From positions 32,001-96,000 of the IMG/VR virus record IMGVR_UViG_3300049434_000014: a DNA stretch of 64,000 bases, one strand, 5' to 3'. Numbering within the stretch: position 1 is the stretch's first letter; every line of letters starts with the position of its first letter. Under the pieces are notes generated by a model that saw nothing but the letters and a program-made list of their open reading frames with translations, was not told the origin of the DNA and searched no databases. The stretch comes from a virus. A program made the position numbers and the translations under genes. Below, in pieces: positions 9,435 to 63,978 of the stretch.

Positions 9435-9568
9435 AGTGACGTGCTGAAGGAGCGGCCTACTTCGGATAAATCACTGGTCTCAAAAATCGGTGATGAGTTG
9501 GGTTCGATATCCCAACAACCCAGCGGGCGACTGCTGGGATTAGGCTGAGCCACATGGTTGCCGTCACT
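9435..9568 (+). ncRNA. Y-RNA-like (YrlA-type) RNA with tRNA-like domain, copy 3
   Basis: AGTGACG/CGTCACT helix; TGCTGAAG...TACTTC; anticodon-like arm TCACTGGT-CTCAAAA-ATCGGTGA; T-arm GTTGGG-TTCGATAT-CCCAAC. Confidence 0.75.
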
Positions 9569-9589
9569 TCCTACAAGGAGATGAATCCA

Positions 9590-18147: not shown

Positions 18148-19482
18148 ATGAGCGATGATGCAGGTATGCAGATGCTTGCTGATCTCGGCATTGCTCTGCA
18201 GGACCCTTCGCTGACTGAGATTAGTTCTGTGGGTGGCACAGAGATCTCTGATGAGCAGTTGCTTGATCCTGTCGCCGAGCCTGACTCTCCTCCTATCTTT
18301 ACGTTGCAGCGTATGGTTTTCGCTTCGATGATGAAGCAGGTAATGCAGGTGGTTCCGCTGCGTGACTTCTACCCTCAGCTTAAGAACGTGTTGATTGAGG
18401 TCACTGATGGTCGGCTGTCCTTGACGGGCTCGGACTCGACGTCGTCTGTGGTGTCTTCGACTACGGCTGTTCGTGTGGATAATCCTGGCCGTGTGTTGGT
18501 GGGCGCTAATCGCTTCGCTGCGGTGATTGCTCGAGCTGCGGGTGCGGAGGTCACCATTCGGTGTGAGGGTGCGTCTGTGCTCATCTCATCGGGCGCGGCG
18601 TCGTGGTCGCTGCGGGTGGCGTCTGTTCAGGACTATCCTCCGTTGCCTGATCTCGGAGATATCTCCTGGTACGATGTTGACCGGTCTGCGTTTGCTCGCG
18701 CGATCGGCGGCACTCGTTATGCTGCTTCTAAAGACGATAACAAAGATCACATCATGCAGCTTGATATTGCTGGCGGTGTTGTGACGGCAACGGATGATCA
18801 GCGTTTCGCTCAGGTCCGGGAGAGTTTGCCTGTTGAGTTCGGGTGTCAGCTTCCTGCGTCTGGTGCGGATCTGTTGATTAAGATGCTTGAAAACAATGAT
18901 GCTGCACAGTTCCGTATGGCTGATACGGACTTTCACATTGTTGCAGAGATTGGTCCTGTGCATGCTCCTGACCGTGTAATCATTGCTCATTTGATGCGTC
19001 CGTTCCCTCCGGAAGCTCGGACGGCTCTCGCTGCTCCGCAGGCCGACAATCGTGATGTCCTCACGGTGGCTGCTGACGATCTGATCGAGGTGTTGCGCCG
19101 CGCTGCTCCTACGGCTGATGAGGAGACGGCAGCGGTCGCTCTGCGGATCGGTTCGCCTGAGCCTGGCAAAGTGACGGTCGCCTCGCGCAATCGCTACGGC
19201 GATTTGAGCACTGAGGTGATTGAGGCTGCGTTCGTCGTCGCTGGCTCGGAGCGGGTCGCTGAGGCGCGCACGGTGGTGGTGAGCCACGTTCATCTGCTCC
19301 AAGCCGTCAGGGCGTCTGTGGAGGCGTCTCCGTTGGGCGACGAGGAGGCTGGCGCTGGGATGGTTCAGCTCTTGCTTGGCCAGCCTCGGTCGCGCTCCCG
19401 TCCTGCGTACGTGATGGTCACCGACGCCGGTAGGACCGTGCAGGCCGTGCTCTCGCAGGTCCGTTCGGACTGGATATCTTGA
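18148..19482 (+). CDS. dnaN: DNA polymerase III beta subunit-like sliding clamp
   Basis: P.LKNVLI....G.L.LTG.D, DYPPLP, YAASKD and ATD..R motifs; three-domain length. Confidence 0.8.
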   Translation: MSDDAGMQMLADLGIALQDPSLTEISSVGGTEISDEQLLDPVAEPDSPPIFTLQRMVFASMMKQVMQVVPLRDFYPQLKNVLIEVTDGRLSLTGSDSTSSVVSSTTAVRVDNPGRVLVGANRFAAVIARAAGAEVTIRCEGASVLISSGAASWSLRVASVQDYPPLPDLGDISWYDVDRSAFARAIGGTRYAASKDDNKDHIMQLDIAGGVVTATDDQRFAQVRESLPVEFGCQLPASGADLLIKMLENNDAAQFRMADTDFHIVAEIGPVHAPDRVIIAHLMRPFPPEARTALAAPQADNRDVLTVAADDLIEVLRRAAPTADEETAAVALRIGSPEPGKVTVASRNRYGDLSTEVIEAAFVVAGSERVAEARTVVVSHVHLLQAVRASVEASPLGDEEAGAGMVQLLLGQPRSRSRPAYVMVTDAGRTVQAVLSQVRSDWIS

Positions 19483-22898: not shown

Positions 22899-22970
22899 GC
22901 GTCGGTAGCTCAGAGGAAGAGCAGCTGCCTCTTAAGCAGCGGGTCGGGATATCGTAATTCCCTCGACGCA
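22899..22970 (+). tRNA. tRNA-Lys(CTT), atypical T-loop (ATCGTAA)
   Basis: Cloverleaf GCGTCGG/TCGACGC; anticodon arm GCTGC-CTCTTAA-GCAGC. Confidence 0.85.
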
Positions 22971-22971
22971 C

Positions 22972-23094
22972 GGGAGACCTGGACATGTCCTACCCCATAC
23001 TAAACTGATCCCGTGAGATATTGGGCCGATCCATGGTTCCTCTCTACACGTTCTGATGCTTAGGGTTGATCGCACGATTGGCCCTAAGCATCAG
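22972..23094 (+). ncRNA. structured ncRNA module copy A (pseudoknot-like core, CGTG/CACG helix, long hairpin)
   Basis: GACCTGGACATGTC...TAAACTGATCCC; related to the copies at 23402 and 23557. Confidence 0.5.
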
Positions 23095-23103
23095 GAAATG
23101 CAA

Positions 23104-23179
23104 GCCTCGATAGCTCAGCCTGGACGAGAGCAGATGCCTTTTAAGCATCGGGTCGTTGGTTCAAATCCAACTCGGGGTA
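23104..23179 (+). tRNA. tRNA-Lys(TTT)
   Basis: Canonical cloverleaf; GATGC-CTTTTAA-GCATC; GTTGG-TTCAAAT-CCAAC. Confidence 0.93.
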
Positions 23180-23390
23180 CGTGAAATTATATAGAACCCC
23201 TTCTGAGGTGCAATCCGCGCAGTTACGTTTTCGCTGGAGTTCTGAGAAAGCAGCTAGAGTTATTTCCCGACATCGGGAATACTATATTCCAGTTGTAGAT
23301 TTTGTTAAACCTAATTGGTTCCCGTTGGCAACACTCAGTTTGAGTGTAGTTACGAATTGTGTAACAATTTTAGTTGCTTTGCTGATAAAA

Positions 23391-23770: not shown

Positions 23771-23912
23771 ATTGCGATACTTCCTTACCGGCTGCATCTT
23801 CATCTTGATGAACGTTCCTGCTCCCGACGACCTTCGACTTGACATGCATGGTCGTGTATGGTTGGGTAGTACTAGACAAGGTTGCAAGGTCGAGCGAGAA
23901 GGCGGTAAAGCC

Positions 23913-25139
23913 ATGCAGGTTACGGAGTTGTTCTCCAATGAGGCGCTTGGGGAGATGGTTGCTGCGGGTTATGTGCGTATGCAGCGGCATCCTCGTTTCC
24001 ACGATGGCGTCCCTTACGTCATCTTCAATTACACGGAGACCGCTGCTTACGAGCGTGTGTGGAATCCGGTCACTGAGGTGTGTCGTGGCTTGATTGTGAA
24101 CAACGCGACGCTCGAGGTTGTCGCACGTCCGTTCCGTAAGTTCTTTAATTACGGTGAGCCTGGCTCTCCTGTTCTCCATATGGATGAGGGTGCGGACGTC
24201 TATGACAAACTAGACGGCTCGCTCGGCATTCTTTACCAGCTTCCTGATGGCGAATATGCGATTGCCACGCGCGGTTCGTTTGATTCCGAGCAGGCTCGCC
24301 ACGCCACAAAGGTGTGGCAGGATCGCTACGCGGGCAAGTTCACTCCCTATCCTGGCGGCACTTATCTGTTTGAGATCATCTATCGTGCCAATCGCATTGT
24401 CTGCGACTATGGGGACATGGACGATCTCGTGTTGCTCGGTGCTGTCGACATTGAGACTGGTGTTTCTTTTACGCCTCACGAGGGTGAGGCGATTGGTGAG
24501 TGGCCTGGCCCTAAGGCTGAGATGTTTCAGTACTGGTCGCTGGCAGCTGCTCTGGCAGCGCCTCCCCGTCCGGGTAAGGAGGGCTTCGTCCTTCGGCGTT
24601 GGCATTCCGAGGATCGCATTAAGATCAAGCAGGATGATTACGTTGCGTTGCACCGGATCATTACGAATTGCACGGCGCGTCGGATCTGGGAATACCTCGC
24701 GGTGTTCGCTTGCCAACCTTATGCGACAACGGGCGTTGAGTTCTTAGTGCGTAAGTTGATGATGGGTCCTGCTGACATTAATCGGATCCTCGCGGTTGGC
24801 TCTAACTGGCTGGAGACTTTCCTGGTTGGTACTCCGGAGGAGTTTCGTGATTGGGTGCAGGACAAGGTGTGGGAATTCCTTAGGGCTCGCACGTCGCGTT
24901 TGCAGGATCTGGAGTTGTCTTTGCATCTGATGTTGGCTACAGCGGATGTCCCTCGCTCTGCGGTCGGCGGTCCGTCTCGTGAAGAGGCTAAGGCGTTCGC
25001 CGCAGCGGGTCGGTCTCATCCTGATTTTCAGCTGCTTATGACCATGCTTCGTGGCCATGAGATCGAGTCGACTATTTGGCGTGAGCTGCGCCCTGCCCAC
25101 GAGCTTCCTTACCGGGCAGTGGATGAGTCTGTGGCTTAG
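23913..25139 (+). CDS. T4 Rnl1-like RNA ligase
   Basis: CRGLI, ARPF.KFFNY.E, KLDGSLG (motif I), ATRGSF.S, FEII, EGFV (IV) and KIK (V). Confidence 0.92.
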   Translation: MQVTELFSNEALGEMVAAGYVRMQRHPRFHDGVPYVIFNYTETAAYERVWNPVTEVCRGLIVNNATLEVVARPFRKFFNYGEPGSPVLHMDEGADVYDKLDGSLGILYQLPDGEYAIATRGSFDSEQARHATKVWQDRYAGKFTPYPGGTYLFEIIYRANRIVCDYGDMDDLVLLGAVDIETGVSFTPHEGEAIGEWPGPKAEMFQYWSLAAALAAPPRPGKEGFVLRRWHSEDRIKIKQDDYVALHRIITNCTARRIWEYLAVFACQPYATTGVEFLVRKLMMGPADINRILAVGSNWLETFLVGTPEEFRDWVQDKVWEFLRARTSRLQDLELSLHLMLATADVPRSAVGGPSREEAKAFAAAGRSHPDFQLLMTMLRGHEIESTIWRELRPAHELPYRAVDESVA

Positions 25140-26481: not shown

Positions 26482-27516
26482 ATGCACGAGGATATGGTGT
26501 CTGCGATGCAGCCGGTCGAGGCTGATGTCGAGTCTTTGCCTGACTTCCCTACTGAGTTGATCCTGACGCGTGGCCTTCCCGGTTGCGGTAAGACAACGTG
26601 GGCTCGCTTGATTCTGGAAGTGGAGCGCTCCAAGGGTCGACGGATTGTTCGGGTTAATCGCGATGACTTGCGTCGCATGGCTTTGCCTTCCGGGTATGGC
26701 AAGCCTGACTTCGCGACGGAAAAGGAGATCTCTGCGATTCGGGATGCCGCGCTCGAGCATTGGTTGTCGGCTGGCGTTTCGGTCATTGTTGATGACACCA
26801 ATCTTCGTATGCGTTTTGCTCGTGATCTGGCTGATCTCGCGGAGCGGTTGGGTGTGGAGTTGGTTGTCGTTGACTTCTTTGAAGTCGATCTCGACACTTG
26901 CCTTGCACGCAATGAGGATCGTCATGGTACTGAAAGCTACGTGCCTCCGTGGGTGATCAAAGATATGTATGGTCGTTACCTGGCTGGCTCTAAGCCGGGT
27001 CCTGTTCTCCCTCGCCCGACAGCGTGGCAGTCTGCGGTCGTGCCTTACGAGCCTGTTTACGGTGCTCCTGAGATTGCGCTGGTTGATCTCGACGGCACGG
27101 TTGCTTTGCTCAATGGGCGAGGTGCTTACGATGAGTCTTGCGTTTCAGAAGACTTGCCCAATCACCCAGTGATTGAAGCTGTGCAGGCAATGGCTGGTCT
27201 CGGTCGGTGGGAACGAATGAGTCAACATGATCGGACGATCGGTTTGGTATTCATGTCTGGTCGTACTGAGGCGTGTCGTGTGAGTACTACTGATTGGCTT
27301 TCCACGCATCTCGGTATTGCTCCCGAAGATGTCGTGTTGCACATGCGCGATATCGGCGATCAGCGTCCTGACCGTGAGGTAAAGTTGGAGCTGTTCAATA
27401 AGCACATTCGTCATCGGTTCGAGGTTCGTTGCGTTTTTGATGATCGTGTGAGCGTTGTTGAATTGTGGCGCCAGCTCGGGCTAGTGTGTTTCCAGGTGGC
27501 TGATGGGAAATTCTAA
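26482..27516 (+). CDS. pseT: polynucleotide 5'-kinase/3'-phosphatase (T4 PseT-like)
   Basis: GLPGCGKTT and NRDDLR kinase motifs; DLDGT, SGR and FDDR HAD phosphatase motifs. Confidence 0.93.
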   Translation: MHEDMVSAMQPVEADVESLPDFPTELILTRGLPGCGKTTWARLILEVERSKGRRIVRVNRDDLRRMALPSGYGKPDFATEKEISAIRDAALEHWLSAGVSVIVDDTNLRMRFARDLADLAERLGVELVVVDFFEVDLDTCLARNEDRHGTESYVPPWVIKDMYGRYLAGSKPGPVLPRPTAWQSAVVPYEPVYGAPEIALVDLDGTVALLNGRGAYDESCVSEDLPNHPVIEAVQAMAGLGRWERMSQHDRTIGLVFMSGRTEACRVSTTDWLSTHLGIAPEDVVLHMRDIGDQRPDREVKLELFNKHIRHRFEVRCVFDDRVSVVELWRQLGLVCFQVADGKF

Positions 27517-37942: not shown

Positions 37943-38687
37943 TGATGATGCGTTCTACGACGCCACTATACTTATCGTGGCTGTTCGCCTTAATCATCTT
38001 TACGATTGGGGCTATCCTGCTTCCCTCATCGTGGCCGTGGTGGCTTCTGCGTATCGCTGCCTTCCTGCTCATATTAGGTTTCGTTACGGTGAGTGCGCGA
38101 TGGTATTTGCAGCGTGGGCGCCTGCCGAGGTGGTGGCCGTCGTCAAGGGATTGAGGCATGTGCTGTTTCAGTTACTGGTTGTTGCCACGACGGTCGTTCT
38201 GATCCTGGGCTTTGTGTCTGTGCCGGGGGTGTCGTGGTGGATGACGGCGATTGTGCTGGTCGTTGCGGGAGCTGTGCTCGGTTTGGTGGGTTCTGATCTC
38301 GTTATGTTGTATTTTAGGCGTCCAAAACACTCTTCGCGTCGTTCAGAAGATGTTCGGTGAAAGCTGTAACGTTTCGACCGCGCGCACCGATACACTGTAT
38401 GTAAGGTTCAAACGCCCCCCAAGCCCCAAGGAGTCCCCGATGATCGACACCAAGGTTGCCGTTCCCGCGCTGGTAGCGGTGCTCACTCACGAGGATCGTG
38501 TGAAGGCGCTGCGTCAGGACTGTGGTCGGATCGCTACCTGGATGGTCGTGTCGGGTGTGCTGGCCGCGCTGCTTCTGCTCGTGAGTGTGTTGGTCTGAAA
38601 GTTCCGGGTAGGACTGTGTAACGTTTGCAAGGTCTGGTACGATATACCTAGTGTAAGGCTCAATTCACCCGGTTAAGGGAGATCGAA

Positions 38688-38912
38688 ATGTTCTCAACGT
38701 TGCAGGTTGTGGTTCCTGACGAGATGCGCGAGACGGTTGAGGCTGTGTTGGCTGAGGTCAACGCTGATGCGCCTGCTCCGTGCCTTTCGATCTCTGAGAC
38801 GGACGCCGGGTTCGACGTGCGCGCTGAGCTGGCTGATGTGGCCGCTGTGCGGTCTGCGTTGCAGTACATCGGCGGTCGGGTGTCTGCGGGCTGGCGTCGG
38901 GTGGAGTTCTAA
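38688..38912 (+). CDS. hypothetical protein
   Basis: Own promoter and AAGGGAG RBS. Confidence 0.6.
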   Translation: MFSTLQVVVPDEMRETVEAVLAEVNADAPAPCLSISETDAGFDVRAELADVAAVRSALQYIGGRVSAGWRRVEF

Positions 38913-39108
38913 ACTTCTTCTGAAAGCTTGTAACGTTTGCGATGTGTGGTACGATACACCTAGTGTAAGGCACCGAACAACCGCAAGGCAGAGCGTCCGG
39001 GCGGTTGGAGGTGGTGGGAATTGTTCGGCAGAGCGTCCGGGCTGGCCTTCCACCTCATCGGTGCCGACATCTAGACATCGATCTTGACATCCGGTAAAGG
39101 AGCAGGTC

Positions 39109-39261
39109 ATGGTTGCGGTTCGCTACAAGGATTGGTCAAAAGATCTCCCCGTGACCCGCGAGAAGGAGTTCAAGTCTGAGCGTGCGTTCCAGTCTTGGCT
39201 GACCAGGGTCGCCGAGCGGGGCAACGTTGAGGTGTTGGCCACGTGCCGTGAGGGTGCGTGA
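39109..39261 (+). CDS. 50-aa hypothetical protein (not in ORF track)
   Basis: AAGGAG RBS; MVAVRYKDWSK... Confidence 0.55.
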   Translation: MVAVRYKDWSKDLPVTREKEFKSERAFQSWLTRVAERGNVEVLATCREGA

Positions 39262-39464
39262 TGCGGGCGCTGTGGGGTGTGCTGGTCGAGTTGTTCTGCT
39301 TGCTGTGGGGTGTGTTCGTAGCGGTGGCGTTTCTTGCTGTGGGCCTGCTCATCGTGGGTGTGACGTCGGGTGAGCTGACGGTGGTGCTGCTCAGTGTGCT
39401 GGCCGTGATCTTCGTTGGGTTCGTGGCGTGGTGTGTGCGGTTGTTGTTTACGGATAGTGTGTAA
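39258..39464 (+). CDS. small membrane protein
   Basis: Two TM segments; coupled start. Confidence 0.55.
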   Translation: MMRALWGVLVELFCLLWGVFVAVAFLAVGLLIVGVTSGELTVVLLSVLAVIFVGFVAWCVRLLFTDSV

Positions 39465-39528
39465 CGTTCCTGGCCCCACGAGCGATATACTGTATGTAAG
39501 CGAACAACAACTTAGACGGAGGCACCAA

Positions 39529-39729
39529 ATGGGCACCACGAAGTGGATCGACGCAAGCAAGCTCACCGCTGGTGCTGAGGTCTACATCAAGCCAGGCTTC
39601 GATACCTACAAGGTGGGTGTGGCGTTCGTGGCGGGTCCGGTCTCTGACGATGGCACGCTGCCGGTGACCTTCGAGGGTAGCGGTCGGGTGGCGTGGGTGC
39701 CGCTGCGATCGGTGTCTGAAAGCCTGTAA
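39529..39729 (+). CDS. hypothetical protein
   Basis: Promoter 39461 and GGAGG RBS. Confidence 0.6.
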   Translation: MGTTKWIDASKLTAGAEVYIKPGFDTYKVGVAFVAGPVSDDGTLPVTFEGSGRVAWVPLRSVSESL

Positions 39730-39796
39730 CGTTTTCGATGTATGGTACGATATACCTAGTGTAAGGCAGTCAACCACCCGATCAAGGGAGCTGGTC

Positions 39797-39973
39797 ATGG
39801 ATCCGATTCGCGAGTTCGATCGCACCGAGCGAGTGTTCACGGGACGCTGGTATGTGCTGGTCAAGGTCTATGGGCCTGCGGGTGACTGCACTGAGGTCGA
39901 CTCCGAGACGGGCGGTCCGGGTCTGCGCTATTCGGTGATGAAGCAGTACGTGCCAGCTTCGATGTGTGTCTGA
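39797..39973 (+). CDS. 58-aa hypothetical protein (not in ORF track)
   Basis: Promoter 39726 and CCCGATCAAGGGAGC. Confidence 0.55.
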   Translation: MDPIREFDRTERVFTGRWYVLVKVYGPAGDCTEVDSETGGPGLRYSVMKQYVPASMCV

Positions 39974-40068
39974 AAGATCTTCAACGAGCCTGTAACGTTT
40001 GATCCACTCCGAGCGATATACCTAATGTAAGGCACACACGCACTACCCAATCAAGGGAGCTGGTCATC

Positions 40069-40242
40069 ATGGCACGCGAGGTCGACACTTTCGAGTTCCG
40101 CACTTCCCACTGGACCGAGCCTCGCGGGCGTGGTAGCTGGATCTTCGAGAACAAAGACTCCGGTGAAGAGGTCACCTTGCAGGGTCCGTACTCGAGGGTG
40201 GTTCGTCAGCTTCCTGCGGGTAGTTGGAAGGTCCTTCCGTAG
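40069..40242 (+). CDS. 57-aa hypothetical protein (not in ORF track)
   Basis: Promoter 39992 and CCCAATCAAGGGAGC; SH...PRGRGSW.F motif. Confidence 0.6.
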   Translation: MAREVDTFEFRTSHWTEPRGRGSWIFENKDSGEEVTLQGPYSRVVRQLPAGSWKVLP

Positions 40243-40258
40243 TTCACTAGTTCGCTCT

Positions 40259-40291
40259 GAGACCGGTTTCCGCAGGTGGGAGCCGGTCTCT
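40259..40291 (+). terminator. hairpin terminator
   Basis: GAGACCGGTTTCC...GGAGCCGGTCTC followed by TT. Confidence 0.6.
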
Positions 40292-40376
40292 TGCGTTGGG
40301 TAGGACTATGTAACGTTTGCGAGGTATGGTACGATATACATGATGTAAGCGAACGTACGAATTGACGGAGGGCGTC

Positions 40377-40628
40377 ATGGCTCAGCGTAAGTACCGCAAG
40401 GGTGATCGGATTCAGTTTCTGAGCAACGGTGTGCTCGGTCAGGTGGTGCGCAATATGGGGCCTGCTGTCAATACTCGTACTGGCAATGATGTGATTGAGT
40501 GGCGCGAGGTGCTGCCTGACGGTGCTGGTGGGGAACGTTTGGGCGCGGTGTGTGTCCACGACGCGGAGAAGCTTTGGCTGGTCATGGCGGCTGTCTCAGC
40601 GTTTCCCAAGCCGGGTGTGTTGAGGTAG
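40377..40628 (+). CDS. hypothetical protein
   Basis: Promoter 40310 and GGAGG RBS. Confidence 0.6.
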   Translation: MAQRKYRKGDRIQFLSNGVLGQVVRNMGPAVNTRTGNDVIEWREVLPDGAGGERLGAVCVHDAEKLWLVMAAVSAFPKPGVLR

Positions 40629-40702
40629 TAACGTTTGCATGGTTCACTACGATATACCTAGTGTCAGGCAGTGCACGGGGTTCAACCCAGGAGGTCATGG
40701 TC

Positions 40703-40951
40703 ATGAAGTTTACTCACCCGGTTCTTGTTCTCACAGCCCTCGAGCTGGCGCGTCGTGAGCCCACTCAGGATGAGGTTCCCCCGAGCCTGACGGTGACGAT
40801 GTCTGAGTTGGATCGGGCTGGCCTGGCTGAGTACGTCATGCAGCGTCGTGGTCGGGTGTCTCGCACACGGGTGCGTTTGACTGAGACTGGTCTTGCTCGC
40901 CTGCGTAGGGCTCGGAGGATGGCTCAGGAAGTCGCTGCTGAGGATGTGTAA
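40703..40951 (+). CDS. small winged-helix-like protein (paralog of 48987..49262)
   Basis: EL..AGL......R.....RLT..G..RL..ARR. Confidence 0.55.
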   Translation: MKFTHPVLVLTALELARREPTQDEVPPSLTVTMSELDRAGLAEYVMQRRGRVSRTRVRLTETGLARLRRARRMAQEVAAEDV

Positions 40952-40971
40952 CGTTTCGTAGGCAAGTACGG

Positions 40972-41001
40972 AGACCGGTCTCTCACAGGGCCGGTCTTTT
41001 T
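40972..41001 (+). terminator. intrinsic terminator
   Basis: AGACCGGTC...GGCCGGTCT followed by a T-run. Confidence 0.65.
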
Positions 41002-41050
41002 GCTTGCAGGATCGAGTAACGTTTGCATGGTCCGGTACGATATAACCATT

Positions 41051-41278
41051 ATGAAGAACGTGATCGTGGCCGCGTTGCTGGTGCTCTCAGGGCTTGCCTG
41101 CCCGCTAGCCCAGGCTGTGGGTTCTGACGTCGTGGTGGGGCACACAGCGGCTCTCTCGGTGCCGTTCATCCCGATCCTGGTGCGGGGCGGTGAGGGTTGC
41201 AGCGAGGAGCCTTCTGCGGATGGCACGACGGAGCGGATCTGCGGTGTGTTGGTAGCGGACTTGATCGAGTCTGTCTGA
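41051..41278 (+). CDS. small secreted protein
   Basis: Signal peptide MKNVIVAALLVL...AQA; leaderless after promoter 41016. Confidence 0.55.
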   Translation: MKNVIVAALLVLSGLACPLAQAVGSDVVVGHTAALSVPFIPILVRGGEGCSEEPSADGTTERICGVLVADLIESV

Positions 41279-46148: not shown

Positions 46149-47564
46149 TTGACCCAAGTTGCTGATTTGTTGCGGTCTCGGTTGTGTCATCAGTTTGATG
46201 TGCGTCGATTGACTGCGCTGGTCGGTGCGGGTGGGTTGGTCCCGCTCGTGACGGGGGAGTGGGTTCCGTATTGTTATTTTGATAATGCGGCGAGTACTCC
46301 GTGTTTGGTGACGGTGCGAAAGGCCGTTGTTGATTTCTTGGAGTATTACTCCAGTGTGCATCGTGGGTCTGGGTTGTTGTCTGCTTATTCCACGGAGGTT
46401 TATGAGGATGCGCGTGCGGTTGTGGCTGCGTTTGTGGATGCGCGTCCTGATGATTGTGTGATTTTTACTCGTAATACGACTGATTCGACTAATCTTATTG
46501 CTTCGGTGCTCGAGTCTAGCGATTCGGTGTTGGTGTGCGCGGGTGAGCATCATGCCAATTTGCTGCCGTGGCGTCAGGGGAGTGTCACGACGCTGCCTGT
46601 GTCGCGTTCTCCCGGTGAGGTGTTGGAACGGTTGGAGGCTGCGCTTCGTGCCGGGAGCTTTGCTCTGGTGGCGGTGACGGCGGCTAGTAATGTGACTGGC
46701 GAGATCTGGCCGATCGCGGAGATCGTCGCTCTGGCTCATCGTCATGGTGCTCGTGTGGTGGTCGATGCAGCTCAGCTTGCTCCGCATCATCCCATCAGTA
46801 TTAGAGACTGGGATGCGGATTGGGTGGTGTTTTCGGGTCATAAGTTGTATGCCCCGTTTGGTGCGGGTGTGGTTATTGGTCGTTCGGATTGGTTGGCTCG
46901 GGCTAAGCCTTATTTGTTTGGTGGTGGGGCTGTTGACTATGTTTTGGTAGATGATGTGGTGTGGGCTGGTCTGCCGGATTTACATGAGGCGGGCAGTCCT
47001 AACACTGTGGGGGCTATGGCTTTGGGTGTTGCTTGTCAGACGCTGTCTTTAGCGGGGATGTCTCGGCTGTCTGCAGCGGAGTCTTTGCTATTTGACGTCT
47101 TGCGGCGTGGGTTGTCTTTGGTTCCTGGGTTGACGATATATGAGATGTGGCCTGGGGATTTTGAGCGTATCGGGTTGGTTACGTTCAATCTGGCCAATGT
47201 TGGGTATGCCGAGCTTGCTGCCATTTTGAGTGCGGAGTTCGGGATTGGTGTGCGGCATGGGTGTTTTTGTGCGCATCCGTTGATGGCGTGTCTGATGGGT
47301 GTCTCTGATGACATGATGCGTACGATTGGTCATGATCTGCACACGGCGAAGTCTTTGTTTGTTCCGGGTGCGGTGAGGGTGTCGTTGAGTGTGGGGACTT
47401 CCCTTAACGATATCATTCGATTGCTTAATGCTTTGCATATCATCGCGGATGGCGGTTCGAGGTGGAAGTATTTAACTTCTCCTGATGGTAAGGATTGTGT
47501 TCCGTTGTCTGATGACCGGGTGTTTCCTACGTCTCCGTTTGATCTGTCGTACTTGGGAGTGTGA
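46149..47564 (+). CDS. class V PLP aminotransferase / SufS-like cysteine desulfurase
   Basis: YFDNAAST, SVHRG, EHHANLLPW, ASNVTG, DAAQ, SGHK (PLP lysine), EAGSPN and RHGCFCA. Confidence 0.92.
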   Translation: MTQVADLLRSRLCHQFDVRRLTALVGAGGLVPLVTGEWVPYCYFDNAASTPCLVTVRKAVVDFLEYYSSVHRGSGLLSAYSTEVYEDARAVVAAFVDARPDDCVIFTRNTTDSTNLIASVLESSDSVLVCAGEHHANLLPWRQGSVTTLPVSRSPGEVLERLEAALRAGSFALVAVTAASNVTGEIWPIAEIVALAHRHGARVVVDAAQLAPHHPISIRDWDADWVVFSGHKLYAPFGAGVVIGRSDWLARAKPYLFGGGAVDYVLVDDVVWAGLPDLHEAGSPNTVGAMALGVACQTLSLAGMSRLSAAESLLFDVLRRGLSLVPGLTIYEMWPGDFERIGLVTFNLANVGYAELAAILSAEFGIGVRHGCFCAHPLMACLMGVSDDMMRTIGHDLHTAKSLFVPGAVRVSLSVGTSLNDIIRLLNALHIIADGGSRWKYLTSPDGKDCVPLSDDRVFPTSPFDLSYLGV

Positions 47565-55948: not shown

Positions 55949-55961
55949 GGTATGATCGTTT

Positions 55962-56080
55962 CGACAAGTCAGTTCTTTACGCTTCGAGCCTTCCTGACAA
56001 GTCCAATCATGTCTTTTTCAGTTCGACTCGACTATTCTTGTCCATTCACCTCGCCTCGAGGCGTTTGACTTTTTCGTCCT
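55962..56080 (+). repeat. phased pentamer array 1 (3-4 units, YGACWR + (NYC-NN)n)
   Basis: Anchors at 55962, 55995, 56029 and 56066. Confidence 0.7.
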
Positions 56081-56098
56081 AAATGGGAGAATTCTGTT

Positions 56099-58357: not shown

Positions 58358-59311
58358 ATGGCAACGTCTGTACGGACCGACGAGCACCGCGAGGGTGTGC
58401 TGGTACCCGCGAACTACAGGTTTCGCGAGGTGCTGGATCTCTACGCTGGTGGACCCAAAGATGACGTGATCGCTCTGGCCAAGCAGGCAGCGGTCCCTCC
58501 GAGGTGGCTTCAGTTCGTAGAGCGTCAGCGCGCTCGGGTGAAGCAATACCAGGCTCGCGCAGTCGGCGATCGTCCTCGGTTGTCTCAGTGCAATATCTGT
58601 GGTGCGCACATTCGTTACGCGGTTGTGTGGGCATACAATCCCGAGCCGGGTGGTCACTTCGCTGGTTACATTACTACGGGTACTGACTGTGCCTCGTCCG
58701 TCAATGCTGCACTCGAGTCGGAGATTGCTTCTCAGGCTGGCGCTCTGCGTGAGTTCGTCGCTGGCATGCGTAAGCAGGCGCGGTCGGCTGCAGCGGCGCA
58801 CACGGAGCCTGCTGTGCCTGTTGAGGCGGCGTCACGGTGGTCTGCTGTGGATCGTCGTCGTCAGGCGTGGATCGCGGAGTCTAACGATCACTATCGGGTC
58901 GCGCACTTCCTGCACGCTGTGTCTGGTAACCACGCGGATCTCGGTTGCACTGGTAAATGTTTTCACTGTGACGTGACGGCTCAGTTGGTTGAGACCGGCT
59001 CGTTGTCGGAGCGTCAGGTTGAGGCTGTGCTGCGTTCTGTGCCTTCCTGGGAGGCGCATGGTCGGCTTCCTGAGCCTGCCTTCGAGATTCCTTCAGGTGA
59101 GACCACGATTACAGGCACGCTGGCTTCAGCGCGCAATGGGCACATGCTCATTAAGTGCAAGGGCTACCGTGTGTGGACGATTCCCCCGGAGGGTCTGCGG
59201 TCGGCTCAGACGGGTTCTCAGGTTCGGTTCACTGCTTATGTGGAGCCTTCCACGAAAGATCCTAAGTTTTTGATTGCTCGCGATGTTCGGGACGGAGAGG
59301 TTGTCGGTTGA
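58358..59311 (+). CDS. hypothetical protein with zinc ribbon and C-terminal OB-fold-like region
   Basis: CNICG..IRY....G.DC, G.LS.RQ..AV and G.R.TI.G....G..V.FTA.V motifs; promoter 58287. Confidence 0.65.
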   Translation: MATSVRTDEHREGVLVPANYRFREVLDLYAGGPKDDVIALAKQAAVPPRWLQFVERQRARVKQYQARAVGDRPRLSQCNICGAHIRYAVVWAYNPEPGGHFAGYITTGTDCASSVNAALESEIASQAGALREFVAGMRKQARSAAAAHTEPAVPVEAASRWSAVDRRRQAWIAESNDHYRVAHFLHAVSGNHADLGCTGKCFHCDVTAQLVETGSLSERQVEAVLRSVPSWEAHGRLPEPAFEIPSGETTITGTLASARNGHMLIKCKGYRVWTIPPEGLRSAQTGSQVRFTAYVEPSTKDPKFLIARDVRDGEVVG

Positions 59312-59460
59312 AATGGCTAGGGGTAGACGTCCCGTTCCGGAGGGCTTCGTTCGGATACTAGATCGTCGTAGCTCCGGTGCGGCGGGTGCGCACAAGGGTA
59401 GGACTGTGACGAGAAGTGCTGAGAGAAGCTCAGCTATTCGATCGAGCAGGGAGAATTAAT

Positions 59461-59793
59461 ATGTGTAAGTCGATTACTGTCGGCGAGCTTTTTGCGACCG
59501 ATAATCGGACTTTGACGGAGAAGATGGACGATCATTCGAAGCAAGATAATTTCGAGAGTGCTTTGACTGGTGTTCAGTATCAGCTTCGTCAGGCTCGGAT
59601 CGCTATGCTGGCTGCGGGAATGAAGATGCAGGATACTGATCGCCCGGAGATTGAGGTTGACGATTTCAGGTTGTACGACACTGCGGTGGAGGCAATTCAG
59701 AATCTTCAGGCTCGTATTCGTGACATTCTTGATGATTTGGATCCTAACGCTCCCATCCCGTCTGAGCGGCAGCTCCGCACGGATCAGGTCTAG
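59461..59793 (+). CDS. hypothetical protein
   Basis: GGGAG RBS. Confidence 0.55.
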   Translation: MCKSITVGELFATDNRTLTEKMDDHSKQDNFESALTGVQYQLRQARIAMLAAGMKMQDTDRPEIEVDDFRLYDTAVEAIQNLQARIRDILDDLDPNAPIPSERQLRTDQV

Positions 59794-59823
59794 TCTTCCT
59801 ACGTCGTGTTCAGAGAGGTAGTT

Positions 59824-60108
59824 ATGCATCCGAATTCAGCATTTGCTTGGGATGATACTTCTCATCCTGCTCTTGCAGCCAAGGCGCGCGAGGCTCAGTT
59901 GGAGAAATTAGATACTCTGATGTATGTGCAGAAGAAGCTGATTGAGTCTCAGCGGGCACTGCTTGATGCTTTGTCGTCTCTGGTTGATACCAAGGTTGAG
60001 TTGTCTGCTGCTAGGAAGAAAGCGGCCAGTGAGACTCAGGGTTTCTTGACGGATTTGCAGCTGGCAACGCTGGAAGCATTCGCTTTGATTCAGCAGGGAT
60101 CGGTTTAG
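59824..60108 (+). CDS. hypothetical coiled-coil protein
   Basis: GAGG RBS. Confidence 0.55.
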   Translation: MHPNSAFAWDDTSHPALAAKAREAQLEKLDTLMYVQKKLIESQRALLDALSSLVDTKVELSAARKKAASETQGFLTDLQLATLEAFALIQQGSV

Positions 60109-60196
60109 CGGGTACGACCAGTCGTCTTCGGACAGGGCATAGTAGAGCCTGAACAGACAGAATAAACTAGATATGGGGAGCACCGAAGAGTGGTTG

Positions 60197-60670
60197 TGAC
60201 TGGTCATGTCCACTCTCGGTGACTCGCTACGTTACACTGCAGATCGACTACTCAATTCTGTTCAGGCCCGTTCGATTCATTTGACAACCCGGCACAGGCC
60301 CTCTCGCATCCATGCGACAATGCGAGTCTTGTCTCCCCCTGGCCCATGCCGACTGTCCGTCTCGCCTCCGTATCCCATCCTTTCCGTTCTGTGCCGACGA
60401 GCCAGCTCGATCCGGGTCTCTCCCACCCACCGACTAGTCTCTGCGGATCCTCCCGGGTCAGGTGACTCTGCCGATCTAGTCCCAGCGCATCATCTCGTGT
60501 CCGACTATCCGTATCCGTGCTTGTCGTTTCCAATCGACCAGTCAGTCCCGGTCAGTTCGTGCCTTGTTCCGACAGATCGCTGCTGTTCGTTTCCCGTCAG
60601 TGCGACGGACCGAGACTGTTCGCCTCCAATCAGTTCGACTACTCGACACAAGTCACCCCAAGGCCGACGA
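60197..60670 (+). repeat. phased pentamer array 2 (about 13-14 units)
   Basis: YGAC anchors at 60197, 60220, 60245, 60282, 60315, 60350, 60395, 60431, 60463, 60502, 60535, 60570, 60603, 60636 and 60665; C at every 5th base within units. Confidence 0.8.
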
Positions 60671-60686
60671 ACCGTTAGGACTAGTT

Positions 60687-60908
60687 ATGGCACTGAGTGA
60701 GTCGGTGAAGAACCGTCTGCTGAACTGGAAGTTCGAGCAGGCGTGGCAGACCTTGTCTGAGGAGATGGGCGGGGATGCTTCGGAGGCTGAGGTTCAGACG
60801 GTGCGGGCGTTGGCGATCACGTTCGGGGATCCGGGTTGGTTTGAGGGTTCGATGGCAGACATCATCCGGGCTGTGTTGTGGTTTTTAGGAGTGACTGACG
60901 ATGATTAG
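60687..60908 (+). CDS. hypothetical protein
   Basis: ATG after TAGGAC motif, directly downstream of array 2. Confidence 0.55.
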   Translation: MALSESVKNRLLNWKFEQAWQTLSEEMGGDASEAEVQTVRALAITFGDPGWFEGSMADIIRAVLWFLGVTDDD

Positions 60909-61125
60909 TTTTCGACAGATCGATGAGTTTCTTACTCCTAAGGATCCGTTTTTCAAGCTTTTGATACCTGCTCTGCTTGCGGCTTATGTGTTTATGTTAA
61001 CTGTGGGTGCTGTTGTCGCTATCACTTTCTTTACTATCGGGATGGCTATCGTTATCACGTCTGCTGTGATGGGTAGCTTGTCGTTGGTGATTTTCTACGT
61101 GATCGATAAGGTAGTCACCAAATGA
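60901..61125 (+). CDS. small membrane protein
   Basis: Two TM segments; AGGAG RBS. Confidence 0.55.
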   Translation: MISFRQIDEFLTPKDPFFKLLIPALLAAYVFMLTVGAVVAITFFTIGMAIVITSAVMGSLSLVIFYVIDKVVTK

Positions 61126-61535
61126 CTAGGGTGTGGCGTGCTCATGGATTGCCTCACGGGCATGCGGATATTCCTAGGAAGATACGAACAGCTGATCATC
61201 GATTGTTTGAGCATTTTGATGGTAGTTTGTTTCGTGAGCTTTCTACGTCTCAGTGTAATTATAGGCACTGGGATGAGTTGGTGTTTCCTGTTTTTGAGGT
61301 CTCGGATGTTTCTCCAGAGGCGGTGTCTGCTTCTGCGGATGGTGTGCTCACGGGTGTGTGGATGTCTGGTCAGTTCTCGGACATCGACATGATTAACGAC
61401 ATCGCTGATTGGTTGTTGAAGACTAAGCTTCCTGTGTTGAACGTCAGTTTTGCTGCAGCGGTGGCGGATCGTATTCGTTACCTGCTAGAAAATGATGAGG
61501 AGACTCACCTGCTGCTAGGGAGAGAAGAGCTGTGA
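61122..61535 (+). CDS. hypothetical protein
   Basis: ATGA coupling. Confidence 0.55.
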   Translation: MTRVWRAHGLPHGHADIPRKIRTADHRLFEHFDGSLFRELSTSQCNYRHWDELVFPVFEVSDVSPEAVSASADGVLTGVWMSGQFSDIDMINDIADWLLKTKLPVLNVSFAAAVADRIRYLLENDEETHLLLGREEL

Positions 61536-61837
61536 GTGATCACAAGATCGTGGAGTTTCTGAATTTGTGCGTGTCGGCTGATGAGGCAACCGGGTTAGGT
61601 TCGCCGTGGGAGTTTATCTTCAAGCGACGCATCATTGTCATTCATGCCCCACGTAAAGACGATAATGAGCAGTGGGTGTGTGATGCGTGTTCGTGGATGC
61701 ATCCTGAGATACGTCAGATTGTTAATGCGTACGCACCTTGCGAGCATTTGCAGTATATGTCTATGATCTATTCTAAGCGGGCTGGGTTTGATCCGGATTG
61801 GATTCATGACGTGATCGGGTTCGCTGAGCTTCCCTAA
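61532..61837 (+). CDS. hypothetical protein (DUF6221-like)
   Basis: KRRII..H.....C..C.......PC..L..M...Y..R.GF.P.W motif. Confidence 0.6.
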   Translation: MSDHKIVEFLNLCVSADEATGLGSPWEFIFKRRIIVIHAPRKDDNEQWVCDACSWMHPEIRQIVNAYAPCEHLQYMSMIYSKRAGFDPDWIHDVIGFAELP

Positions 61838-61857
61838 TACTCCGGGTTTTCCGGATA

Positions 61858-62355
61858 TGACTACACTACTCCGATCCTTTCATGTCGTTGGCGAATCGTT
61901 CCCGTCCCGACTATTCGCCGCATGTCCCTTCGTGTCTTGCCAAGTCGACTATTCGTTTCGATCCCGGCCATTTCGTTTTGACTATTCGCATCGGATCCAG
62001 CTCCTATCGATTCGACTGATCTTGTCGACTACGCAAGTCAGTTCCGTTCTTTGCATTGCGACTTGTCGAGCCTGTCCGTGTCCGCGCGTATCGACTACCC
62101 GATCCAGTTCCGTCCTTTCCCGCTCTTTCCGACTACGCTCGTCTCATCCGGGCATGTCATCTCGACTACTCGATTCTTTCTCGTCGCTGCGGCTCTGTTC
62201 GACTACCCGGTTCGATACGGGACATCCCTGTCCGTTCTGACTACCCGTCTCCGTTCGCTTCTAGCCCAGTCCGTCTCGACAACCCATGTCGCGGCACTGC
62301 TCTTCTTTCCGTGACGACAGGCCAGTTCCAGTCTGTTCGTCTCTGTACGACATCA
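61858..62355 (+). repeat. phased pentamer array 3 (about 13 units)
   Basis: Anchors at 61858, 61908, 61946, 61979, 62013, 62026, 62059, 62092, 62130, 62163, 62200, 62238, 62277, 62315 and 62348; spacings mostly 33 or 38. Confidence 0.85.
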
Positions 62356-62375
62356 CACATCGGGTAGGAGTTGGG

Positions 62376-63464: not shown

Positions 63465-63535
63465 GGCTTCATAGACTAATGGCAGGTCACTAGCCTCTCA
63501 AGCTAGGAGTACGGGTTCGACCCCCGTTGGAGCTA
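63465..63535 (+). tRNA. tRNA-Glu(CTC)
   Basis: GGCTTCA/TGGAGCT acceptor; CTAGC-CTCTCAA-GCTAG; ACGGG-TTCGACC-CCCGT. Confidence 0.85.
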
Positions 63536-63547
63536 CGTTTGTATTAA

Positions 63548-63617
63548 CGTTCCGTGGTGTAGGGATAGCACGCCGGTCACGGGACCGGTAGTCCACGTTT
63601 AACTCGTGGCGGAACGA
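63548..63617 (+). tRNA. tRNA-like gene with non-canonical anticodon loop (identity undetermined)
   Basis: CGTTCCG/CGGAACG acceptor; CCGGT-CACGGG-ACCGG (6-nt loop); CCACG-TTTAACT-CGTGG. Confidence 0.6.
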
Positions 63618-63664
63618 CGCACGGCCTAGGATCGCCTCTGCTTCGGGCATGCGCCTAGGTCTCT

Positions 63665-63738
63665 CGGGATGTAGGGAAGCCAGGTATCCCACCTGTTTTG
63701 GGTACAGGAAGCCGCAGGTTCGAATCCTGCCGTCCCGA
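63665..63738 (+). tRNA. tRNA-Pro(TGG)
   Basis: CGGGATG/CGTCCCG; CCTGT-TTTGGGT-ACAGG; GCAGG-TTCGAAT-CCTGC. Confidence 0.9.
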
Positions 63739-63740
63739 CT

Positions 63741-63816
63741 GGATGGATGTAGCTCAATGATAGAGCCCTTGGATTAACGTCTAAGGAGACGTGGGTTTGA
63801 TTCCCGCCACCATCCT
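63741..63816 (+). tRNA. tRNA-like gene with bulged acceptor stem and 8-nt anticodon loop (identity undetermined)
   Basis: TAGCTCAATGATAGAGC D-arm; CTTGG-ATTAACGT-CTAAG; GTGGG-TTTGATT-CCCGC. Confidence 0.6.
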
Positions 63817-63820
63817 TCAT

Positions 63821-63894
63821 GGTGAATGTAGCTCAAATGGCAGAGCGCCTGATTGTGGGTCAGGTCGTTGCGGGTTCGATTCCCGTCGTTCACC
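63821..63894 (+). tRNA. tRNA-His(GTG)
   Basis: G-1; GTGAATG/CGTTCAC; CCTGA-TTGTGGG-TCAGG. Confidence 0.92.
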
Positions 63895-63978
63895 CCGAGA
63901 GGGACGGAGTCCAAAGCACATATGGTACCTGTTGCTAGGACTTAAACGACAATGTTATGTGTGTCCGTCCTTCTCCTA

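What the first reader, a model, noticed from the sequence alone, without database searches (positions are those of the whole stretch)
60109..60670. Pentamer array 2 has a GGGTACGAC promoter and a structured leader
Seen: a variant of the GGGTAG motif at about 60110 is followed by an approximately 85-nt segment closed by ACCAGTC/GACTGGT and TCTTCGG/CCGAAGA pairings, which runs into the first anchor. Then come about 13-14 units with more variable spacing (23-45 nt) than array 3. The 164-aa ORF in the track is Ser/Pro/Arg/Cys-rich and probably spurious. Inference: a leader-plus-array architecture analogous to other guide arrays, with possibly older or more degenerate units.
Basis: partly seen in the sequence, partly recalled or inferred. 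Interest (0 to 1): 0.75.

Follow-up and report, generated by a model that had tools for sequence, protein, structure and literature searches.

The report
Phased-pentamer array tied to phage Cas7-like gene
The flagged stretch is a real non-coding array of about 14 short units with a cytosine every fifth base; it belongs to a widespread, apparently undescribed phage module in which such arrays sit next to a lone Cas7-like (CRISPR-backbone-type) protein gene, probably as RNA tracks for that protein.

Summary
Window 60197-60676 is a genuine non-coding array of about 14 units. Each unit starts with YGAC and then has a C every fifth base. Strict matches number 27 in the window against 2.5 expected.

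The 164-aa ORF is spurious. The GGGTACGAC motif is a one-base variant of a genome-wide, leaderless-type -10 promoter motif. The "structured leader" is no more stable than shuffled sequence, but its sequence is paralogous to the leader of a 4.2-kb array elsewhere in this complete 153-kb phage genome.

At least seven such arrays cover about 4.4% of the genome. They share only a grammar: unit length 5n+3 and pentamers of the form NNBYC.

The same grammar flanks a single-copy 252-aa gene whose confident model is Cas7/Csm3-like. In IMG/VR the link holds both ways. Of 118 contigs picked by DNA pattern, 25 carry the gene; of 78 picked by the gene, 66 carry adjacent same-strand arrays. A second, related RAMP family sits next to a second dialect, (NNGAC)n.

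I read the arrays as RNA assembly tracks for a Cas7-like filament with a 5-nt step (inferred, untested). I found no target complementarity, so a guide role is unsupported. No publication turned up. First-stage readers noted the same module on another genome.

The parts
60110..60118 (+). Promoter-like motif GGGTACGAC (hexamer TACGAC at 60113-60118). It is a one-base variant of the genome-wide GGTAG(G/T)A(C/T) motif.
   Evidence: The motif occurs 69 times on + and 5 times on -. In 33 of 69 cases a start codon lies 5-6 nt after the hexamer, which is the geometry of a -10 element for leaderless mRNA. The paralogous leader of the 4.2-kb array has the canonical GGGTAGGAG at the aligned position. No transcription start-site data exist.
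60119..60196 (+). Leader between the motif and the first unit. Its conserved core is GGGCATAG (60135-60142) followed by AACAGAC (60152-60158).
   Evidence: paralogous to genome 145255-145340 upstream of the 4.2-kb array. A small stem (T)TCGG/CCTGAA flanks GGGCATAG, and the paralogue has TCCGG/CCGGA. The fold is not beyond chance.
60197..60676 (+). Array 2: about 14 units of YGAC followed by 5-7 pentamers ending in C. The strand is C-rich and G-poor, and the predicted RNA is unstructured.
   Evidence: The fold of the array is no better than shuffles (z +0.73). Tandem Repeats Finder finds no sequence repeat here.
60206..60700 (+). 164-aa ORF, judged spurious.
   Evidence: no codon periodicity; an open frame is expected by composition. 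(no family hit). In sister array 3, relatives differ by 38-nt and +33-nt indels.
60674..60689 (+). Promoter-like GTTAGGAC (hexamer at 60676-60681) and the ATG (60687) of the next gene. The array ends here.
   Evidence: the same 5-nt hexamer-to-ATG spacing as the leaderless class.
60687..60908 (+). Downstream 73-aa gene of unknown function.
   Evidence: period-3 z 3.4.
55951..56085 (+). Sister array 1 (short).
61857..62365 (+). Sister array 3, with regular 33/38-nt units. A TCCGG-N5-CCGGA hairpin lies just before its first unit.
   Evidence: Whole-unit indels are seen in a related strain.

Best explanation
Array 2 is one of at least seven dispersed non-coding arrays in a complete 153-kb soil phage. 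All are written in one grammar. A unit starts with (C/T)GAC and then has 5-8 pentamers of the form N-N-(not A)-(T/C)-C, so unit length is quantised as 5n+3 (28, 33, 38, 43 nt). The remaining positions are free.

The arrays are the cognate nucleic acid of a phage-encoded, single-copy Cas7-like RAMP protein (genome 106228-106986) and its conserved helical partner (genome 104349-104912).

Most likely mechanism, all inferred:
1. Each array is transcribed from a phage promoter, here GGGTACGAC, as unstructured C/U-rich RNA.
2. The Cas7-like protein polymerises along it, one subunit per pentamer. Each subunit reads the phased C, or the YC dinucleotide.
3. GAC acts as the nucleation, boundary or processing mark that resets the register by 3 nt.
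4. The result is discrete 6-8-subunit particles or long filaments.

The array is therefore an assembly track rather than a library of guides. The downstream role of the ribonucleoprotein is open. Options include transcript protection or regulation, shielding a rut-like RNA from Rho, or an anti-defence decoy.

Shown: the grammar, its significance, non-coding status, the gene-array linkage, the Cas7 fold and the mode of evolution. Inferred: transcription, RNA binding, the 5-nt step and the biological role.
For: Grammar:
- In-phase C frequencies are 100, 94, 88, 85, 78 and 77% at positions 4 to 29, with T before the C in about 55% of cases.
- Across 70+ other phage loci the unit spacing peaks at 28, 33, 38, 43, 48 and 53 nt.
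- The first two positions of each pentamer carry 1.9-2.0 bits of entropy.

Linkage between array and gene:
- A DNA-pattern-only scan of IMG/VR returned 118 loci, of which 25 carry the 252-aa gene directly adjacent on the same strand.
- A protein-only scan returned 78 loci, of which 66 have at least 2 strict units within 1.5 kb on the same strand. Overall there are 909 same-strand units against 189 on the opposite strand.
- The gene is single-copy in this 100%-complete genome.

Protein:
- The AlphaFold2 model has pLDDT 90 and pTM 0.84.
- Foldseek top hits are all Cas7/Csm3 (E 6e-8, probability 1.0). VIA-align gives Z 10.4, and the top 17 rows are all CRISPR RAMPs.
- There are weak sequence hits to the RAMP G-rich loop.

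Context:
- A second conserved gene, about 190 aa and helical, lies in 49 of 75 loci in the order helical gene, array, Cas7-like gene.
- A second RAMP-like family, homologous to the first (hhalign E 2.6e-6, probability 88.6%), sits next to a second dialect, (NNGAC)n, in 16 loci. Protein family and array dialect therefore change together. In one of these loci the gene and array are followed by an intrinsic-terminator-like hairpin.

Evolution:
- Arrays do not align between relatives whose flanks are 77-92% identical.
- A related strain shows an exact 38-nt deletion and a +33-nt replacement.
- Adjacent units are more alike than random pairs (0.396 against 0.317, p < 0.0002).

The array RNA is predicted to be unstructured.
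Against: - There is no RNA evidence: no RNA run holds this phage, so transcription and any 33/38-nt products are unobserved.
- All known Cas7 backbones bind RNA with a 6-nt, not a 5-nt, period (established knowledge of type I/III/IV structures).
- No binding, oligomer or complex prediction could be run.
- Some loci carry arrays on the strand opposite the gene (L169, L173, L174, L178).
- Strand bias could also reflect a single-stranded DNA role.
- Arrays 1-3 of this window lie 10-18 kb from the gene, so for them the link rests on shared grammar only.
Confidence: 0.55

Rival explanations
1. Guide arrays. Each unit matures into a crRNA-like guide held by a Cas7-like backbone. The phased C is flipped out, and the 4-nt segments pair with a host or rival-phage target.
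For: The fold is Cas7. Unit lengths are quantised, like type III crRNA length classes. Unit sequences are hypervariable between relatives. A promoter and leader precede the arrays.
Against: No excess complementarity to the phage's own genome with contiguous or 4+1 spaced seeds. There is no protospacer-like match in the lysogen genome of Nocardiopsis tropica. Positions -1 and -2 of every pentamer are also constrained. The sister dialect fixes 3 of 5 bases. Units arise by local tandem duplication, not acquisition. No nuclease or other cas gene is conserved nearby.
Confidence: 0.15
2. DNA-level element. The arrays are bound as single- or double-stranded DNA, for example as replication, priming or packaging sites. 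Many pentamers in this phage read NNGTC, resembling T7-type primase recognition sites. Alternatively the protein is a DNA binder.
For: In this phage the Cas7-like gene lies among replication genes; a clamp-loader gene follows it. The largest array lies near the genome end. GTC is common in phase.
Against: The RAMP fold family is RNA-binding in all solved cases. In high-GC relatives the pentamers are NNCCC rather than NNGTC. There is strong same-strand bias with the adjacent gene. There is no AT-rich or iteron-like repeat.
Confidence: 0.12
3. C-rich, G-poor untranslated spacers that act on host Rho. They would work as rut-like terminators or Rho sponges, or merely as unstructured 5' UTRs. The Cas7-like protein would be unrelated, or would only modulate them.
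For: C-over-G skew of -0.2 to -0.45, predicted unstructured RNA, YC dinucleotides, and intergenic position on the transcribed strand.
Against: This does not explain the strict 5-nt phase, the GAC punctuation, the 5n+3 quantisation, or the two-way genetic linkage to RAMP genes and the dialect switch.
Confidence: 0.08
4. The 164-aa Ser/Pro/Arg/Cys-rich ORF is a real protein-coding gene.
For: An open frame of 164 codons with an ATG.
Against: No codon periodicity. No homologous family. The 5-nt phase rotates through codon positions. Sister arrays carry several overlapping ORFs and non-triplet unit indels.
Confidence: 0.01

Closest known systems
Class 1 CRISPR effector backbones (Csm3/Cmr4 of type III, Cas7 of type VII, Csf2 of type IV) on crRNA
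   Same: The predicted fold of the linked protein is the same. The gene sits next to an array of short units. Unit lengths are quantised by a fixed step. A leader and promoter precede the array.
   Different: The arrays have no repeat-spacer structure: only a 4-6-nt head is shared. The step is 5 nt rather than 6. The sequence is constrained inside every step. No cas1/2/5/6/10/11 gene is conserved nearby. Units arise by tandem duplication. The module is encoded by phages and prophages.
Type IV-B Csf complex assembled on non-CRISPR RNA (PMC7937560) and haloarchaeal HRAMP loci, which have Cas5 and Cas7 homologues without an array (reviewed in PMC8730458)
   Same: These are Cas7-type proteins working without a CRISPR array or adaptation genes.
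   Different: Those systems have no dedicated cognate array and keep Cas5 and Cas11 or nucleases. Here a dedicated coded array is present and only one helical partner is conserved.
TRAP binding to (G/U)AG repeats separated by 2-3 nt (from my own knowledge)
   Same: A protein oligomer reads a short motif repeated about every 5 nt on unstructured RNA. This is closest to the (NNGAC)n dialect.
   Different: The protein fold is unrelated. TRAP sites hold 9-11 repeats in one regulatory leader, not kilobase arrays.
Rho utilisation (rut) sites (from my own knowledge)
   Same: C-rich, G-poor, unstructured, untranslated RNA rich in YC.
   Different: rut sites have no strict phase, punctuation or linked RAMP gene.

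Membership tests
Cas7 / RAMP protein superfamily (for the linked 252-aa protein) | RRM-like RAMP core fold with a C-terminal glycine-rich loop | tested here: met
   Model pLDDT 90. Foldseek E 6e-8 to type VII Cas7 and Csm3. VIA-align Z 10.4-9.4 to Cas7, Csm3 and gRAMP. G-loop hits to Csm4, Cmr6 and Cas6 models at E 4e-4 to 0.3.
Cas7 / RAMP protein superfamily | Recognised by curated sequence models (Pfam RAMP families) | tested here: not met
   No Pfam or PHROG family above threshold. All database homologues are named 'hypothetical protein' and carry no Pfam domain.
CRISPR-Cas system | Array of near-identical direct repeats (about 23-50 nt) separated by unique spacers | tested here: not met
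   Tandem Repeats Finder finds nothing at 60.1-60.7 or 61.8-62.4 kb. Units share only YGAC(W)(A) and the C phase.
CRISPR-Cas system | Other cas genes (cas1/2 adaptation; cas5, cas6, cas10/cas8, cas11 effector parts) in the neighbourhood | tested here: not met
   Clustering of neighbours in 75 loci gives only one conserved partner, a helical protein of about 190 aa. Its model has no significant fold match, so a Cas11-like role remains inconclusive.
CRISPR-Cas system | Backbone binds RNA with a 6-nt register | not testable with these tools
   The arrays show a 5-nt register.
Guide RNA array (any RNA-guided system) | Unit sequences complementary to identifiable targets | tested here: inconclusive
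   No excess over shuffled controls against the phage's own genome. Only chance-level matches in one lysogen genome. The hosts of this phage and rival elements were not available.
Iterons / replication origin repeats | Several near-identical 17-22-bp repeats, usually beside an AT-rich stretch | tested here: not met
   No sequence repeats. GC is 0.55 with C-over-G skew.
Protein-coding gene (164-aa ORF) | Codon periodicity and homologues | tested here: not met
   Period-3 z is -0.9, against 3.4-18.7 in neighbouring genes. No family hits.

The most novel reading that the evidence does not exclude
Phages of Actinomycetota, and at least one phage isolated on Microcystis, carry a previously undescribed ribonucleoprotein system. 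A solitary Cas7-like RAMP, in at least two related families, reads a 5-nt periodic sequence code written in dedicated non-repeat arrays. Each family has its own dialect: GAC plus NNBYC pentamers, or (NNGAC)n. This would be a CRISPR-independent offshoot, or a relative of the ancestor, of class 1 effector backbones, used by viruses for anti-defence or for control of their own transcripts.
Probability: 0.5. Interest if true: 0.9.

Novelty: categorically new. Interest (0 to 1): 0.85.

Why it matters
If the reading holds, it would be the first case of a Cas7-type protein paired with a dedicated, non-CRISPR, sequence-coded array. The array has a 5-nt register instead of the universal 6-nt one, and the module is encoded by viruses rather than by their hosts.

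It bears on how RAMP backbones recognise and measure RNA, and on the origin and exaptation of class 1 effectors. It also bears on what phages do with up to 4-5% of their genome that current annotation leaves blank or fills with spurious ORFs.

The module is directly testable. It occurs in cultured strains: prophages in Nocardiopsis tropica JCM 10877, Streptacidiphilus carbonis NBRC 100919 and Streptomyces spp. It also occurs in one isolated phage, Microcystis phage Mae-JY09.

For annotation, the grammar gives a simple, highly specific detector.

Tried and rejected
- **Near relatives in isolated phages:** none by megablast of 59000-62000 or by tblastn of an 815-aa protein.
- **Rfam:** only tRNAs in the window.
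- **RNA evidence:** no RNA holder listed. Only soil-metagenome DNA contigs hold parts of the stretch, and laid contigs were short.
- The atlas fold library was unavailable. The Atlas feature search on a homologue gave only unnamed viral clusters.
- **First related-loci scan:** the attempt with the 59-sequence alignment A2 was rejected for lack of a conserved stretch; the scan was rerun with the 12-sequence alignment A3.
- **Substitution rate by pentamer position between loci:** the first attempt was contaminated by in-phase low-complexity matches of the (NNGAC)n type. After filtering, too few orthologous array pairs remained.
- **Local gene strand around arrays:** inference by GC3 was unreliable (110 same against 71 opposite), so I did not use it.
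- **Leader core GGGCATAG in other loci:** only one plausible homologue, in L132/L028. This is too few for a covariation test.
- **Helical partner protein:** no Pfam or PHROG family and no fold match.
- **Cas7-like family A2:** not found on five fragmentary contigs that carry the (NNGAC)n dialect.
- **Literature:** seven searches found no description of the module.
- **Global Fourier power at period 5:** not significant over the whole array, because each unit resets the phase by 3 nt. The local autocorrelation is the appropriate measure.

Full report
**Setting.** The window is bases 32001-96000 of a single-contig virus record of 153,455 bp. The record has direct terminal repeats and is estimated 100% complete. 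GC is 0.54 and essentially all genes are on the + strand. It comes from soil metagenomes and has no close relative among 50,697 deposited phage genomes.

**The observation.**
- After the stop codon of a 100-aa gene (60106-60108) comes GGGTACGAC (60110-60118).
- A stretch of about 85 nt follows, whose ends can pair: ACCAGTC with GACTGGT, and TCTTCGG with CCGAAGA.
- Then comes a C-rich, G-poor stretch that runs to the start codon of the next gene at 60687.
- YGAC heads lie at 60197, 60220, 60245, 60282, 60315, 60350, 60395, 60431, 60463, 60502, 60535, 60570, 60603, 60636 and 60665. Most are followed by six or seven C's spaced exactly 5 nt apart.
- The strict pattern (YGAC plus five phased C's) occurs 27 times in the window against 2.46 +/- 1.63 in dinucleotide-preserving shuffles. 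Twenty-five of the 27 fall in three intergenic arrays, and eleven fall in this one.
- C and TC autocorrelate at lags 5, 10 and 15 in every array and not in coding DNA.

**Coding status.** The 164-aa ORF has no codon periodicity: z is -0.9, while flanking genes give 14.8, 18.7 and 3.4. With this composition a frame stays open for 164 codons with p about 0.011. It has no Pfam or PHROG hit. It is non-coding.

**Promoter.** GGTAG(G/T)A(C/T) occurs 69 times on the + strand and 5 times on the - strand. In 33 of 69 cases an ORF-opening ATG or GTG begins 5-6 nt after the hexamer. That is the geometry of a -10 element driving leaderless mRNAs, which are common in Actinomycetota (established knowledge). 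Array 2 carries a one-base variant, TACGAC. The aligned position in the paralogous leader of the largest array carries the canonical GGGTAGGAG. A promoter is therefore plausible but unproven. The array ends at another such hexamer, TAGGAC, 5 nt before the next ATG.

**Leader.** The proposed closing helices exist, but stability is not beyond chance. z is -0.95 for 60109-60215 and 0.0 for 60124-60212, from the predicted start. With a start 6-7 nt after the hexamer, the ACCAGTC arm would not be in the RNA.

What does stand out is sequence conservation. The leader aligns with the one in front of the 4.2-kb array: AGCGGGTA(C/G)GA, then GGGCATAG, then GCC.GAACAGAC, then ACAG(A/G)ATAA. GGGCATAG occurs only at these two places in the genome. 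A short stem around GGGCATAG is kept through a T-A to C-G change. Two or three sequences are too few for a covariation test.

**Genome-wide family.** The same grammar recurs at these genome positions:
- 87950-88085
- 92206-92675 (array 2, this finding)
- 93857-94365
- about 104880-105262
- about 106990-107330
- 145400-149660
- 150250-150945

Together they cover about 6.8 kb, or 4.4% of the genome. Aligning 144 units on their heads gives C at positions 4, 9, 14, 19, 24 and 29 in 100, 94, 88, 85, 78 and 77% of units. T or C precedes the phased C, A is avoided two positions before it, and the remaining two positions are near-random at 1.9-2.0 bits. Unit lengths cluster at 33 and 38 nt. In effect the phase runs on through the first C of the next CGAC, and the GAC then inserts a 3-nt step. 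The predicted RNA is unstructured (z +0.73).

**Link to a Cas7-like gene.** An earlier first-stage note pointed to a RAMP-like gene beyond the window, and I tested that lead.
- *Homologues.* The 252-aa protein (genome 106228-106986, single copy) has no Pfam, PHROG or PDB sequence match. It has 506 homologous 50%-identity clusters and 903 homologous 90%-identity clusters. All are named hypothetical.
- *Fold.* Its AlphaFold2 model is confident (pLDDT 90, pTM 0.84). It matches Cas7 backbone subunits almost exclusively: Foldseek E 6e-8 at probability 1.0 to type VII Cas7 and Csm3, and VIA-align Z 10.4, with the first 17 rows all CRISPR RAMPs.
- *Association, DNA to gene.* A scan of IMG/VR with a pure DNA pattern for two consecutive units returned 118 loci. 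Twenty-five encode this protein directly beside the array on the same strand.
- *Association, gene to DNA.* Of 78 loci found with the protein alone, 66 have at least two strict units within 1.5 kb on the same strand. Most of the remainder are cut at a contig end or carry the arrays on the other strand.
- *Partner gene.* One more gene is conserved, in 49 of 75 loci: a helical protein of about 190 aa upstream. The order is helical gene, array, Cas7-like gene, and sometimes a second array. Its model is confident but matches no known fold.
- *Hosts.* The module occurs in prophages of Streptomyces, Nocardiopsis, Streptacidiphilus and other Actinomycetota. It also occurs in one isolated phage, Microcystis phage Mae-JY09. 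There an unannotated array of 33-nt units follows the gene.

**A second dialect.** Many pattern hits are blocks of (NNGAC)n. These contigs lack the first family. Sixteen of them carry, directly adjacent, a second protein family of about 195 aa. That family is homologous to the first by profile-profile comparison (probability 88.6%, E 2.6e-6, 133 columns). Protein family and array dialect thus change together, as expected if the protein reads the array. In L020 the gene-plus-array unit ends in a terminator-like hairpin.

**Evolution.**
- Arrays do not align between relatives whose flanks and Cas7-like genes are 77-92% identical.
- A related strain in a soil metagenome differs in array 3 by an exact 38-nt deletion and by an 18-to-51-nt replacement, a net gain of 33 nt.
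- Adjacent units are more alike than random pairs at the free positions (0.396 against 0.317, p < 0.0002).

Arrays therefore grow by local unit duplication, change by whole-unit indels, and drift freely except at the coded positions.

**Guide or track.** I found no excess of sense or antisense matches between units and the rest of the phage genome. This holds for contiguous 11-15-mers and for 4+1 spaced seeds. A prophage array has only chance-level matches in its host genome. These tests are weak, because the relevant host is unknown. Still, the constraint on 2-3 of 5 positions, the 3-of-5 constraint in the sister dialect, and the duplication mode all point one way. I favour an assembly-track reading over a guide reading.

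**Mechanism proposed (inferred).** The arrays are transcribed as unstructured RNA. The Cas7-like protein polymerises on them with a 5-nt step, keyed by the phased C. GAC marks the nucleation, boundary or processing point. The biological output is unknown. All solved Cas7 backbones use a 6-nt step, so a 5-nt register would itself be new. No RNA data, binding prediction or complex prediction could be obtained.

**Novelty.** Seven full-text searches found no description. The nearest known cases are type IV-B complexes on non-CRISPR RNA (PMC7937560) and array-less HRAMP loci (PMC8730458). First-stage readers of this scan noted the same module on another genome, but nobody had followed it up.

Noticed in passing
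L020:7860-8470 (- strand); L045:9260-9680 (- strand); L072:10330-10650; L053:8050-8480: A second dialect of phased-pentamer arrays. Blocks of 10-25 NNGAC pentamers are separated by conserved 27-43-nt spacers. Each array lies next to a second RAMP-like family of about 195 aa (for example L045:9680-10285 on the - strand, and L072:10657-11232). That family is homologous to the Cas7-like family (hhalign E 2.6e-6).
   Followed up: partly
L199:4745-5180 (PP395641.1, about 38460-38900): Microcystis phage Mae-JY09 is the only deposited phage with a homologue (31% identity). It has an unannotated array of 33-nt units right after the gene, followed by a GC-rich hairpin. It is a ready experimental model.
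   Followed up: partly
whole window, e.g. 7264, 12894, 17265, 44124, 62362, 62799: The genome-wide motif GGTAG(G/T)A(C/T) occurs 69 times on + and 5 times on -. In about half the cases a start codon lies 5-6 nt after the hexamer. It is a likely phage-specific -10-type promoter for leaderless mRNAs.
   Followed up: partly
window 38606-41060 (genome 70607-73060): About seven copies of a longer repeated promoter-like element, GTAACGTTTGC..(G)GTACGATATACCTAGTGTAAGG. This looks like a different promoter class, clustered in 2.5 kb.
   Followed up: no
window 9554-11278, 23772-25139, 26482-27516, 22899-23180, 63465-63896: An RNA-centred gene set: a TROVE/Ro60-like protein, a T4-type RNA ligase, a polynucleotide kinase-phosphatase and two tRNA clusters. 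One ARAGORN call has an odd two-base 'cg' anticodon at 63548-63618.
   Followed up: no
L119:6987-7055 (genome 106987-107055): Directly after the Cas7-like stop codon, an 11-bp perfect stem encloses a GGGTACGAT motif. It is the only array leader that is significantly stable (-42.9 kcal/mol, z -4.0).
   Followed up: partly
window 62041-62060 and 62200-62239: A related strain in a soil metagenome differs from array 3 by whole-unit changes: a 38-nt deletion and an 18-to-51-nt replacement.
   Followed up: partly
window 46149-47564 and 18148-19482: The phage encodes a class-V aminotransferase / cysteine-desulfurase-like protein and a DNA polymerase III beta-clamp-like protein.
   Followed up: no
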